A DNA stretch of 64,000 bases from Escherichia coli. Lineage in GTDB: Bacteria; Pseudomonadota; Gammaproteobacteria; Enterobacterales; Enterobacteriaceae. The stretch's first letter is position 1, and each line of letters opens with the position of its first letter. The stretch is taken from assembly GCF_044324785.1 (NCBI RefSeq), contig NZ_CP172127.1; one strand, given 5' to 3'. This document shows, one piece after another, positions 37,001-40,000 of this stretch. Position numbers: made by a program.

Positions 37001-40000
37001 GAGGATCTCGGTGCAGGTACGCATGTTGAAGTCATTGCGATAGAAGGGATAACGCTGATCATCCGTGCGGTCATCGCCTGATGCGACGCTGACGCGTCTT
37101 ATCATGCCTACAAAAATATGCCCGAATCGTAGGCCGGATAAGTCGTTTACGCCGCATCCGGCGGTTATGCGCTGATGCCTGATGCGGCGCGGGCGCGTCT
37201 TATCATGCCTGGAAGTCTGCGCCCGAATCGTAGGCCGCCTCCGCTATATTAACTGGCATTGGCAAATTACTCGTCACTACCTTTATTCATGTTTTTTTGG
37301 TCTTCATCCGGATAATGTTTTTTTAGATATTCCAGGACGTTTTTATTGACCTTGTGTTGCGTATACACCCACCCTTTCCAGTAATCAGGCTGGTCCAGGT
37401 AAACTTCTGGCGGAATGGTGAAATCAGAAAGCGTTAACCATTCGGCTAACAGATCAGGGTTTCGTTTCTGGATTAACTGCAACAGCATAATCAGTGACAT
37501 AGCTGAGGCAGGAGCCGTACTATCGCCACTCAAATATTTCCACACTGTTGACCGGTTCGAACGAAAAAGGATCGGTAGCAATGCCCGGTCCAGATTCATT
37601 TCATTAAAAATCTTCTCAAATTCATTCATTTAAATTTTCCTGCCTGGCGTAAACCTCTTAAAAATTGAGATTTATCAAAGAAACGCATTTTAGCACACAT
37701 CAGGAACCGGTTCACGTTTAGTCCAGAAACAGAATTTATTTCGCTTATCAAAACAAGTCTTTACTCTTTTTTACATTGAAAGAGCACAAAATGATTTTCG
37801 ATTTTATTTATATAAGAAACATTTTTTGTTTCTTATTGGTGGTGTTTACGCTTACACCAGACAAAAATGCGCTTTACATCACACAAATGGCGGCGTAGAT
37901 TTCGATTAAATTGCAACGCAGATTAATTCTTATAACAACGTTTTACGTTGCTTATAGAAACAAATATGTGACTTACTTTGAAAGAGAAAAAATGCATGAA
38001 AACTGTAAAGCTGTCTTTACTGGCTGTCGTTGTTGCTACCGTGGTAAGTCCATCTGCGTTTGCGGGTGATACTGTTGAGGCGGCAACGACAGAATTAACG
38101 GCAATCCAGCCAGGAATGTCGCAATCGGAAATTGATCAGAAAATTGGTCGATTTTTAGAAAGGACAGGGAATAGTGCAGCCGCACAAAATTATCTGATTG
38201 CGCATGATTACCGGACAACGACACCTCAGGAAAATACAGCTGCCTCTCCCGTACAGCCCGCCAATACGCTGAACCCGATAACCAATCAAGCGCAGACCGA
38301 CCGCGACAACGGGCAGGATACCGCCATTCAGGACGCACAACATGCCGCCAACTGGGCTTCAATGAAAGCTGATGACGCGCAGCACGCCATTATGGTGGCG
38401 CAGACGGATATTGATGCCAATAAAGCCGCCATCGCCGACACCCGTAATGATGTCTCCGCAGTGCAGTCAGACGTCACCAACATAAAAGGCGATGTCGCAC
38501 ATGCCCAGTCAACGGCTGACCATGCCAACGCTAACGCCAACACCGCTCTGATTAACGGCGTCAAACTTTCCGGTGCTGTGACAGAAAACAAAAACAACAT
38601 CGAACAGAACCGCAGCGATATTGCTGACCAGCAGAAACTGTTGGCATCAAACGAGCAAAAACAGATCGTCCGCGACAACGGGCAGGATACCGCCATTCAG
38701 GACGCGCAACATGCCGCCAACTGGGCTTCACTGAAAGCTGATGACGCGCAGCACGCCATCACGGTGGCGCAGACGGATATTGATGCCAATAAAGCCGCCA
38801 TCGCCGACACCCGTAATGATGTCTCCGCAGTGCGGTCAGACGTCACCAACATAAAAGGCGATGTCGCACATGCCCAGTCAACGGCTGACCATGCCAACGC
38901 TAACGCCAACACCGCTCTGATGAACGGCGTCAAACTTTCCGGTGCTGTGACAGAAAACAAAAACAACATCGAACAGAACCGCAGCGATATTGCTGACCAA
39001 CAGCAACAACTCGACGAAACCCGGAAAATCGTTGCCGCCACCGGGGATGTACAGACTGCCGCCCGATATCAGAGCATGATTGACGCCAGACAGACAGCCA
39101 CTGCCAATGCGCAACAGGCACAAGCTGACACCCAGCAGCAACAAATGGACGATCAGCAGAAACAAATCGACGCGACGCAAAAAACGGTTTTCGCACTTGG
39201 CGATGCCCAGACCAACGCACATTATCAAGAGATGGTTAACGCCGGACTGAGAGCACAAAATGATGCGAATGCGCGTACTGCAGCAGAACAAAAACAAAAA
39301 ATAGATACTCTGGCGACTAACCAGGCAACGCAACAGCATATCGATAGTGTGCAGTACGGGGAACAAATTCAGCGTCTGGCGCAAGACTCAACACAAACGC
39401 ATGAACAAATTGACAGCCTGACACAAGACGTAACCCAAACGCATCAGCAGTTAAGCAACACGCAAAAACGAGTAGCGGATAATAGCCAGCAGATTACTAC
39501 GCTCAATAACCATTTCAGTTCGCTGAAAAACGAAGTTGAGGACAACCGTAAAGAAGCCAATGCGGGAACTGCATCAGCCATCGCTATCGCCTCACAACCA
39601 CAGGTGAAAGCCGGTGACTTTATGATGATGTCAGCGGGAGCGGGAACCTTCAACGGTGAATCTGCGGTGTCTGTCGGAACATCTTTTAATGCCGGAACGC
39701 ATACCGTGATTAAAGCCGGTGTCTCTGCGGATACGCAATCTGATTTCGGCGCGGGTGTCGGCGTGGGATATTCTTTCTAATATTCCAATCCTCAATATAA
39801 ATAAGAGCAAGGAAGCTTGCCGGGTTTCACCTCTTCATTAATTTGTACATTATTTAAGGTTAACAATGATGAATAGTTCCATTAAATCGTTTTCCCTGCT
39901 GGCGGTTATATTACTGGCTGGCTGTAGTTCACCCACTTCCCGCATCGCAGATTGCCAGGCGCAGGGCGTCAGCCATGACACCTGTTATCTCGCAGAACAA

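What the first reader, a model, noticed from the sequence alone, without database searches (positions are those of the whole stretch)
38302..39005. Recent 369-bp tandem duplication within the autotransporter stalk
Two adjacent 123-codon units are about 97% identical at protein level and nearly identical at DNA level. This indicates a recent duplication (or a contraction from more copies) and predicts stalk-length polymorphism, a known route to antigenic or functional variation in coiled-coil adhesins. It is also a potential assembly-collapse site.
Basis: seen in the sequence. Interest (0 to 1): 0.45.

Follow-up and report, generated by a model that had tools for sequence, protein, structure and literature searches.

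The report
Variable-length stalk repeat in adhesin
The 369-base repeat is real: it is one 123-residue rod segment of an E. coli trimeric outer-membrane fibre protein that occurs in 0 to 5 tandem copies among sequenced strains, an ordinary kind of length variation, though this gene was published as a transcription factor and is routinely truncated in annotation.

Summary
Window 38293-39007 holds 1.9 copies of a 369-bp in-frame unit, with the core 330/339 nt identical. It lies in an intact 594-aa gene (37996-39780) that has a signal peptide, a long heptad coiled coil and a YadA-type anchor.

Length polymorphism is directly shown: 350 of 5426 complete E. coli genomes carry the unit in 1-5 copies. 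Intact alleles of 471, 594, 717, 840 and 963 aa were recovered, and O157:H7 and UTI89 carry a 338-aa zero-copy allele.

The duplication is not a recent private event. Each window unit is closer to units in other strains (3 and 5 differences) than to its sister unit (9). All internal junctions sampled share one diverged sequence. Unit variants are shuffled between array positions.

Each unit is about 16 heptads plus a 4-residue register shift, bounded by short predicted helix breaks. It should add roughly 18 nm of rod.

The gene is the allele of Z0639 "gmrA" in O-island 29, published as a DNA-binding activator of fliA. My scans found no significant DNA-binding domain, only the YadA anchor.

RefSeq annotation calls only the C-terminal 340-431 aa in the unit-bearing genomes examined.

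This is a new member of a known kind, of moderate interest.

The parts
37996..39780 (+). Gene for a 594-aa headless trimeric-autotransporter-type protein, coordinates including the stop codon. It is the positional allele of Z0639/'gmrA' of O157:H7 O-island 29.
   Evidence: The ORF is intact. Pfam YadA_anchor matches residues 535-594 with E 1.2e-11. The anchor hits solved AtaA, Hia and YadA anchors. The published gmrA deletion primers flank the orthologous CDS exactly in an O157:H7 genome.
37996..38064 (+). Sec-type signal peptide MKTVKLSLLAVVVATVVSPSAFA, with predicted cleavage after AFA.
   Evidence: Read from the sequence: two lysines, a hydrophobic run of about 15 residues, and an A-x-A motif. 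No signal-peptide predictor was available. The architecture is conserved in all alleles.
38065..38298 (+). Small N-terminal three-helix domain (about residues 24-72), followed by a Pro/Thr-rich disordered linker.
   Evidence: AF2 models place helices at mature residues 4-12, 20-34 and 37-46 with pLDDT 70-81. The linker has pLDDT below 50. No Pfam family matched.
38299..38667 (+). Repeat unit 1 (residues 102-224). It is one continuous heptad coiled-coil segment.
   Evidence: define the unit. It keeps a single heptad phase with period 3.51. AF2 predicts helix 97-225.
38638..38667 (+). Internal junction tail (LLASNEQKQI). It is found only between units and is shared by all multi-copy alleles examined.
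   Evidence: Variable-site matrix. It is 16/30 nt identical to the 30 nt upstream of unit 1, which encode LNPITNQAQT.
38668..39036 (+). Repeat unit 2 (residues 225-347). It is the terminal unit, with the distinct QQQLDETRKIVA tail that leads into the conserved stalk.
   Evidence: define the unit. Its heptad phase is shifted by +4 relative to unit 1. AF2 predicts helix 230-349, with breaks at RDNG (226-229) and GDVQT (350-354).
39037..39597 (+). Conserved C-proximal stalk, shared with the zero-unit O157/UTI89 allele. It contains small heptad-multiple tandem repeats at 39133-39172 (21 bp) and 39361-39444 (42 bp).
   Evidence: AF2 predicts helices 355-400 and 404-532.
39598..39777 (+). YadA-type beta-barrel membrane anchor (residues 535-594).
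   Evidence: Pfam PF03895 scores 44.9 bits against a cutoff of 22.7. PDB anchors 9vnj, 2gr7, 3emo and 2lme match.
39866..40288 (+). Downstream 140-aa lipoprotein gene, the z0638 homologue. It belongs to the same small island.
   Evidence: One search gives the sequence, which contains an LAGC lipobox. It is annotated 'lipoprotein' in O157. The z0638 primers map here.
37267..37629 (-). Upstream divergent 120-aa hypothetical gene, the z0640 homologue. It belongs to the same island.
   Evidence: The only family match is a sub-threshold MqsA-antitoxin-like hit, E 0.081.

Best explanation
The two 369-bp units are members of an in-frame, copy-number-variable tandem array. The array holds 0 to 5 units across E. 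coli. It encodes a self-contained 123-residue segment of the trimeric coiled-coil stalk of a small, headless YadA-family autotransporter, carried on the ybbJ-cueR island (O-island 29).

Shown here:
- The unit boundaries, the intact reading frames and the allele series 338/471/594/717/840/963 aa.
- An uninterrupted heptad register within a unit, with a 4-residue register shift at each junction.
- A single shared internal junction in all multi-copy alleles examined.
- Shuffling of unit variants between array positions and between strains.

Inferred:
- Copy number changes by homologous unequal crossing-over or replication slippage between units that share about 340 bp of near-identity. Gene conversion swaps unit variants.
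- Each unit adds about 18 nm of rod (123 residues at about 0.148 nm each). The small N-terminal domain would therefore be held at different distances from the outer membrane in different strains.
- Plausible consequences are altered reach past LPS or capsule and altered exposed surface.

The window carries the commonest multi-copy state, two units. That state was inherited or recombined in. It was not created in this strain.
For: - Repeat and frame.
- Population: the unit is in 350 of 5426 complete genomes at 1-5 places per genome, 610 places in all. An evenly spaced sample of 60 gave 24 genomes with one, 29 with two, 5 with three and 2 with four. One genome has five. The number of places equalled the number of units in all nine loci fetched from these unit searches.
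- ORF series: intact ORFs of 471, 594, 717/703, 840 and 963 aa, plus the 338-aa zero-unit allele.
- Unit comparison over 31 units: each window unit has nearer relatives in other strains than its sister. Identical units sit at different array positions.
- Rapid change inside the array: EcPNK004 and THO-008 have 0/3126 flank differences but 10 differences clustered in unit 2. THO-008 and strain 135 differ by 1 SNP plus a 42-bp, two-heptad indel. Five-copy and four-copy alleles have only 7/3126 flank differences.
- Coiled coil: period 3.51, one phase per unit, phase 5 changing to 2 at the junction. The AF2 helices match the units.
- Family: YadA anchor.
- Single-unit homologues occur in E. marmotae and cryptic Escherichia clades.
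- Other independent in-frame duplications and deletions occur in the same stalk.
Against: - No experiment shows surface display, trimerisation or adhesion for any allele.
- In O157:H7, deleting the whole island did not change adherence to HeLa or Caco-2 cells. The zero-unit allele was reported instead to bind the fliA promoter.
- At least one allele (GF60) has a premature stop in unit 1, so the gene can decay.
- Selection on length is untested, so the variation could be neutral.
- The AF2 model is a monomer of low confidence (pTM 0.20). The connectors and the trimeric state are not established.
- The recombination mechanism is inferred from sequence patterns, not measured.
- The copy number in the source strain cannot be verified without reads.
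Confidence: 0.78

Rival explanations
1. This is the first reader's version: a recent duplication, or a contraction, private to this strain or its immediate lineage.
For: The two unit cores are 97.3% identical and adjacent. The closest flanking sequences in the collection (PCN033 and relatives) carry one unit.
Against: - The sister units differ at 9 sites, while units in other strains differ from them at only 3 and 5 sites.
- The distinguishing sites are polymorphisms shared with other strains.
- The internal junction is the same diverged sequence in every multi-copy allele. It is only 16/30 nt like its presumed source.
- About half of the unit-bearing genomes sampled have two units.
Confidence: 0.08
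2. This is an assembly artefact. The true array in the source strain would have a different number of units, for example three or more collapsed to two, or one spuriously doubled.
For: Units of 369 bp at 97% identity or more exceed short-read length. Arrays of 3-5 units exist in other strains, so collapse of interior units is technically possible.
Against: - The same two-unit architecture, junction and frame occur in many closed genomes.
- The two units carry 9 distinguishing sites and different tails, which anchor an assembly.
- The ORF is intact.
Confidence: 0.08
3. The protein is what the literature says about its O157 allele: GmrA, a cytoplasmic DNA-binding activator of fliA. On this reading the repeat varies the length of a regulator's coiled coil, not of a surface fibre.
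For: Yang et al. 2018 (PMC5826968) report reduced motility and flagellation in a gmrA deletion mutant. They also report complementation, EMSA with His-tagged protein and ChIP-qPCR at the fliA promoter. The primers confirm it is this gene.
Against: - All alleles have a Sec-type signal peptide and a significant YadA membrane anchor (E about 1e-11). The anchor is homologous to solved TAA anchors.
- No DNA-binding family reaches threshold in Pfam or NCBIfam. The only 'DNA' matches are coiled-coil noise to SMC, Rad50 and TMF, scoring 10-31 bits against cutoffs of 35-1087.
- One public source even names a homologue 'Chromosome partition protein Smc'.
- No paper in the library links GmrA to autotransporters.
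Confidence: 0.06
4. The array is a neutral by-product of recombination in a dispensable or decaying gene. Length differences would have no functional consequence.
For: - GF60 carries a premature stop.
- Most E. coli lack the island or carry the zero-unit allele.
- No adhesion phenotype was found for the island in O157.
- 6 of the 9 differences between the window units are non-synonymous.
Against: - 12 of the 13 unit-bearing alleles examined (including the window) keep the frame open across up to 963 aa.
- The observed indels are multiples of a heptad: 42 bp is 2 heptads, and the other repeats are 21 and 42 bp. This suggests the coiled-coil constraint is still enforced.
- The unit is conserved in E. 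marmotae and cryptic Escherichia clades.
Confidence: 0.3

Closest known systems
GmrA / Z0639 of E. coli O157:H7 O-island 29 (Yang et al. 2018, PMC5826968)
   Same: It is the same gene at the same locus, between ybbJ and cueR, with the same neighbours z0638 and z0640. It has the same signal peptide type, N-terminal domain, C-proximal stalk and YadA anchor. Overall identity is 72% in the alignment.
   Different: The O157 allele has no copy of the 123-residue unit (338 aa). The published function, a DNA-binding activator of fliA, is not reflected in any significant sequence feature I could detect.
Cha trimeric autotransporter of the Haemophilus cryptic genospecies (Sheets & St Geme 2011, cited in PMC9704523)
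   Same: It is a trimeric autotransporter in which the number of tandem peptide repeats varies between strains. That variation is reported to change surface exposure and adhesion.
   Different: From my own recollection, not checked here, the Cha repeats are short, about 28 residues. Here the unit is a 123-residue coiled-coil segment, and no phenotype has been measured.
BadA of Bartonella henselae (Thibau et al. 2022, PMC8859334)
   Same: It is a TAA whose repetitive stalk varies between isolates. The variation is attributed to recombination that reshuffles homologous domain arrays, and it needed long reads to resolve.
   Different: BadA is very large and has a head and neck/stalk domain repeats. 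The protein here is small and headless, and its repeat is pure coiled coil.
Periscope proteins (Whelan 2022, PMC9704523)
   Same: They have high-identity DNA tandem repeats encoding a rod-like stalk. The repeat number expands and contracts in populations, projecting an N-terminal domain to variable distances. Homologous recombination is the proposed mechanism.
   Different: The class is defined for monomeric single-chain rods made of independently folding domains, and it explicitly excludes TAAs. The rod here would be a trimeric coiled coil.
YadA of Yersinia, and Saa and Eib of E. coli
   Same: They share the YadA-type anchor and a coiled-coil stalk. YadA length matters functionally relative to the injectisome needle (cited in PMC9704523). 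The saa gene occurs as several size variants. That these differ in the number of a 37-residue repeat is my recollection and was not checked here.
   Different: Those proteins have recognisable head domains. No head, neck or Hep_Hag family matched here.

Membership tests
Trimeric autotransporter adhesins (type Vc secretion, YadA family) | C-terminal YadA-type membrane anchor, with four beta-strands per chain | tested here: met
   Pfam PF03895 matches residues 535-594 with E 1.2e-11 and 44.9 bits, against a cutoff of 22.7. The O157 allele gives the same result. phmmer hits the solved anchors of AtaA 9vnj (5e-7), Hia 2gr7/3emo and YadA 2lme.
Trimeric autotransporter adhesins (type Vc secretion, YadA family) | N-terminal Sec signal peptide | tested here: inconclusive
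   The sequence MKTVKLSLLAVVVATVVSPSAFA|GD has the classical n/h/c regions and an AxA site, and this is conserved in all alleles. It was read from the sequence only, because no signal-peptide predictor was available.
Trimeric autotransporter adhesins (type Vc secretion, YadA family) | Coiled-coil stalk running into the anchor | tested here: met
   Hydrophobic periodicity is 3.50-3.53 over residues 102-520, with long single-phase heptad runs. AF2 predicts continuous helices up to residue 532.
Trimeric autotransporter adhesins (type Vc secretion, YadA family) | Obligate homotrimer displayed on the cell surface | not testable with these tools
   Only monomer prediction was available, giving pTM 0.20 with the anchor unmodelled. 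No experimental localisation exists for any allele in the papers read.
Trimeric autotransporter adhesins (type Vc secretion, YadA family) | Adhesive head domain (YadA head, Hep_Hag, Trp-ring and similar) | tested here: not met
   No head or neck family matched in Pfam, even at E up to 10. The N-terminus is a three-helix domain of about 50 residues. A head is common but is not required for family membership. I call this protein 'headless'.
Periscope proteins | High-identity tandem DNA repeats with strain-to-strain variation in copy number | tested here: met
   Units are 97-100% identical, with 0-5 copies among complete genomes.
Periscope proteins | Monomeric single-chain rod built of independently folding repeat domains | tested here: not met
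   The repeat is a heptad coiled-coil segment in a YadA-family protein, which is presumably trimeric. The review defining the class excludes TAAs. The protein works like a periscope protein but is not a member.
GmrA-type transcriptional activator, as published for Z0639 | A recognisable DNA-binding domain | tested here: not met
   Pfam and NCBIfam scans of the O157 allele and of the window protein find only YadA_anchor above threshold. The matches to SMC, Rad50, TMF_DNA_bd and TFIIA are far below their cutoffs and lie in the coiled coil.

The most novel reading that the evidence does not exclude
The O-island-29 protein is a periscope-like trimeric fibre. Its length would be set in steps of about 18 nm (0-5 units) by recombination, so that a small N-terminal domain is matched to the thickness of the strain's surface polysaccharide. 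The published 'GmrA' motility phenotype would then be an indirect envelope or surface effect of a misassigned outer-membrane protein, not DNA binding. This would extend the periscope concept to coiled-coil TAAs in E. coli and correct a regulator entry that reviews have propagated.
Probability: 0.25. Interest if true: 0.6.

Novelty: new member of a known kind. Interest (0 to 1): 0.42.

Why it matters
Repeat-number variation in adhesin stalks is well known, so the repeat itself is not surprising. Three practical points follow from it.

1. This E. coli gene family has a clean natural allele series, 0-5 identical rod units with otherwise near-identical sequence. Such a series is well suited to testing how stalk length affects the function of a trimeric autotransporter.

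2. The O157:H7 allele is in the literature and in reviews as a transcription factor, GmrA. All alleles nevertheless have the hallmarks of an exported outer-membrane fibre, so the motility phenotype deserves re-examination.

3. RefSeq annotation calls only the C-terminal 340-431 residues in the unit-bearing complete genomes I examined, dropping the signal peptide and, in every multi-copy allele, most or all of the repeats. Pan-genome and adhesin surveys will therefore mis-size or miss this protein, and short-read assemblies may collapse it.

Tried and rejected
- Junction-specific BLAST to count multi-copy genomes exactly. The tool joined the two half-matches in single-copy genomes into one place, so the '234 genomes' figure is not a clean count. 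I relied on the evenly spaced sample instead.
- Promoter and terminator scan of 37600-40600. The counts did not exceed shuffled controls, so no transcription-unit claim is made.
- Search for a DNA-binding domain that could explain the GmrA paper. Only sub-threshold coiled-coil noise was found.
- AF2 on the full-length monomer. Confidence is low overall (pLDDT 60.6, pTM 0.20). I used it only for helix boundaries, not for fold or register. I did not run a fold search because the long helices would dominate the matches.
- Origin of the 30-nt junction tail. It is 16/30 nt identical to the sequence upstream of unit 1 and 11/30 (ungapped) to the tail after unit 2. Neither match is decisive, so the founding event is unresolved.
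- Identity of the source strain. The best flank identity in 5426 complete genomes is only 98.7%, so no near-clonal comparison was possible.
- Antisense ORFs on the minus strand (38328-38696 and 38697-39041). They repeat because the DNA repeats, and I treated them as by-products of that.
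Full report
**1. Observation**

Tandem Repeats Finder reports a repeat at 38293-39007 with period 369, 1.9 copies, 97% matches, no indels and score 1360. The repeat finder gives the same pair at spacing 369.

A base-by-base comparison at offset 369 shows near-perfect identity from about 38300 to 38639. It is followed by about 30 unlike bases.

In codon phase, unit 1 is 38299-38667 and unit 2 is 38668-39036. The first 339 nt of the units are 330/339 identical, or 107/113 aa. The full period is 341/369 nt and 108/123 aa.

Of the nine core differences, six are non-synonymous and three are synonymous. The repeat is in frame in an intact ORF. The likely start is the ATG at 37996, giving 594 aa, and the stop is at 39778-39780.

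**2. What the gene is**

- Pfam finds one significant domain, YadA_anchor, at residues 535-594 (E 1.2e-11, 44.9 bits against a cutoff of 22.7).
- phmmer against PDB sequences hits the anchors of AtaA (9vnj), Hia (2gr7, 3emo) and YadA (2lme).
- The N-terminus reads as a Sec signal peptide, MKTVKLSLLAVVVATVVSPSAFA|GD. This is from the sequence only.
- An AF2 monomer model has low confidence (pLDDT 60.6, pTM 0.20). It shows a small three-helix N-terminal domain, a disordered Pro/Thr-rich linker, and then helices at 97-225, 230-349, 355-400 and 404-532.
- No head or neck family is detected.

It is therefore a small, 'headless' YadA-family trimeric-autotransporter-type protein.

**3. Locus**

The gene lies in E. 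coli, in a four-gene island of about 2.6 kb between ybbJ and cueR. The island comprises a divergent 120-aa gene, this gene, a 140-aa lipoprotein gene and a 67-aa ORF.

The 2661-bp query spanning this gene, its upstream intergenic region and the downstream lipoprotein gene matches 1414 of 5426 complete E. coli genomes.

The island is O-island 29 of O157:H7. The published lambda-Red primers for 'gmrA' (Z0639) match, without mismatch, the 38-39 nt immediately flanking the 338-aa 'YadA family autotransporter adhesin' CDS of an O157:H7 genome. The z0638 and z0640 primers correspond to the lipoprotein gene and the 120-aa gene. I matched these two primer pairs to the window sequence by eye, not with a search.

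**4. Copy-number polymorphism**

The 369-bp unit is found in 350 of 5426 genomes, at 610 places, 1 to 5 per genome, with a median of 2.

An evenly spaced sample of 60 genomes gave this distribution:

| Units per genome | Genomes in sample |
|---|---|
| 1 | 24 |
| 2 | 29 |
| 3 | 5 |
| 4 | 2 |

One genome, strain 18KM2445, has five units.

I fetched 12 unit-bearing loci. In the nine taken from the unit searches, the number of places equalled the number of units. Eleven of the 12 genes were intact:

| Units | Protein length | Strains |
|---|---|---|
| 1 | 471 aa | UPEC132, D8, PCN033 |
| 2 | 594 aa | CFSAN061770, 33F4 (the window also has 2 units, 594 aa) |
| 3 | 717 aa | strain 135 |
| 3, with a 14-residue deletion | 703 aa | EcPNK004, THO-008 |
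| 4 | 840 aa | WP4-S18-ESBL-07, AST215 |
| 5 | 963 aa | 18KM2445 |

GF60 has two units but a premature stop in unit 1.

The O157:H7 and UTI89 alleles (338 aa) have the same signal peptide type, N-domain, distal stalk and anchor, but no unit at all.

Homologues with one unit occur in E. marmotae and in cryptic Escherichia clades. A two-unit form occurs in Shigella dysenteriae.

**5. How old, and how dynamic**

I compared 31 units from 13 alleles, which vary at 73 sites. Four results stand out.

- The window's unit 1 is 3 differences from units in 18KM2445, EcPNK004 and WP4-S18. Unit 2 is 5 differences from units in 18KM2445 and AST215. The two window units differ from each other at 9 sites.
- The mean within-strain distance (8.4) is only slightly below the mean between-strain distance (11.0).
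- Identical units occur at different array positions in different strains. Adjacent identical units also occur, as in AST215 units 1 and 2.
- Every internal junction has the same tail (LLASNEQKQ, with three changes in 33F4). Every terminal unit has the same different tail. The junction tail is only 16/30 nt identical to the sequence upstream of unit 1.

The founding duplication therefore happened once. It is much older than the identity of the core suggests, and the cores have since been exchanged or homogenised.

Change inside the array outpaces change in the flanks:

- EcPNK004 and THO-008 have 0 differences in 3126 bp of flank, but 10 differences clustered in unit 2.
- THO-008 and strain 135 differ by one SNP plus a 42-bp in-frame indel between DAQHA direct repeats.
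- The five-unit and four-unit alleles of 18KM2445 and AST215 differ at 7 of 3126 flank positions.

Other independent in-frame events occur in the same stalk. These are a 122-residue duplication with different breakpoints (P0009, P0046), a 38-residue duplication (P0070, P0071) and 14-residue deletions.

**6. Structure of the unit**

A register scan finds one uninterrupted heptad phase through each unit, with hydrophobic periodicity 3.51. The phase jumps from 5 to 2 between units, a shift of +4 that equals 123 mod 7.

Each unit is therefore about 16 heptads plus an 11-residue (stutter-type) segment at the connector.

AF2 breaks the helix at RDNG (226-229), GDVQT (350-354) and LGD (401-403), all with low pLDDT. 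Units thus look like [short connector + one long helix].

At about 0.148 nm per residue, the established rise for coiled coils, a unit should add about 18 nm. This length estimate is an inference.

The naturally occurring indels are heptad multiples: 14 residues, and repeats of 21 and 42 bp. This is consistent with a coiled-coil constraint that is still maintained.

**7. Mechanism**

The best reading is that the array expands and contracts by homologous unequal exchange or slippage between units of about 340 bp. Gene conversion shuffles the unit variants.

The result is a set of fibres of graded length that carry the same small N-terminal domain.

- Shown: anatomy, allele series, shuffling, register.
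- Inferred: the recombination mechanism, trimerisation, surface display, length per unit, and any selective value.

**8. Conflict with the literature**

Yang et al. 2018 (PMC5826968) named the O157 allele GmrA. They reported that it carries a putative DNA-binding domain from a CDD search, binds the fliA promoter (EMSA, ChIP-qPCR), and is needed for motility. Deleting the island did not change adherence to HeLa or Caco-2 cells. Reviews repeat this account.

In my scans, the only family above threshold in the O157 allele is YadA_anchor (E 1.1e-11). The 'DNA' matches (SMC, Rad50, DndD, TMF_DNA_bd, TFIIA) score 7-31 bits against cutoffs of 35-1087, and all lie in the coiled coil.

One public source even names an E. 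marmotae homologue 'Chromosome partition protein Smc'. No paper in the library connects GmrA with autotransporters.

I cannot refute the experiments. The sequence features, however, argue for an exported outer-membrane protein, so the motility effect may be indirect.

**9. Comparison with known systems**

Variation in repeat number is documented in TAA stalks: Cha, BadA, and the size variants of saa. It also defines the monomeric 'periscope proteins', a class that explicitly excludes TAAs while noting a similar function.

This case is a new member of that known kind. It is an E. coli example with an unusually long unit (123 residues) made purely of coiled coil, and a clean 0-5 series.

**10. 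Verdict**

Assembly collapse remains untestable here. Interest is moderate.

Noticed in passing
L005-L009, L011-L014, L002, L010 (RefSeq loci); equivalent to window 37996-38700: In the unit-bearing complete genomes I examined, PGAP annotates only a C-terminal part of the gene as 'YadA-like family protein': about 340-350 aa in ten of them and 431 aa in PCN033. The CDS starts at an internal codon. The signal peptide, the N-domain and, in the multi-copy alleles, most or all of the repeats are left unannotated, although the full ORF is open.
   Followed up: yes
L004 3357-4373 (O157:H7), equivalent to window 37996-39780: The gene published as the transcriptional activator GmrA (Z0639) is the zero-unit allele of this YadA-family protein. 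No significant DNA-binding domain was detectable, only sub-threshold coiled-coil matches to SMC and Rad50.
   Followed up: yes
window 39133-39172 and 39361-39444: Two further small tandem repeats lie in the same stalk, of 21 bp (one heptad) and 42 bp (two heptads). They show that the stalk is built from heptad-multiple duplications at several scales.
   Followed up: partly
window 37076-37237: Two copies of a 61-nt REP/BIME-like palindromic element, 84% identical, lie between ybbJ and the island. Some genomes differ here by about 33 bp, and two others carry IS1397 or IS4 insertions within the 5.3-kb span that was searched.
   Followed up: no
window 37267-37629 (- strand): The 120-aa z0640 homologue has a weak, sub-threshold resemblance to the MqsA antitoxin HTH region (E 0.081). 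If any island gene binds DNA, this one looks the more natural candidate. The GmrA paper, however, saw no motility effect when it was deleted.
   Followed up: no
window 39866-40288: A 140-aa lipoprotein is encoded immediately downstream of the trimeric autotransporter gene. The arrangement recalls the SadB lipoprotein that assists the Salmonella TAA SadA. This comparison is from memory. No family matched above threshold.
   Followed up: no
window 40896-44230 and beyond (- strand): Next to cueR lie the HlyD-type adaptor and ABC permease/ATPase of a type I secretion system, followed by a giant Ig-like repeat protein gene (over 20 kb in GF60). This cluster is absent or decayed in some strains, including UTI89, UPEC132 and PCN033.
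   Followed up: no
window 38328-38696 and 38697-39041 (- strand): Two antisense ORFs of 122 and 114 aa mirror the two repeat units. They are most likely by-products of the repeated, Ala-rich coding sequence on the plus strand.
   Followed up: no
P0009, P0046, P0070, P0071: The same stalk has independent in-frame duplications with other breakpoints: a 122-residue unit and a 38-residue unit. The stalk appears generally prone to modular rearrangement.
   Followed up: partly
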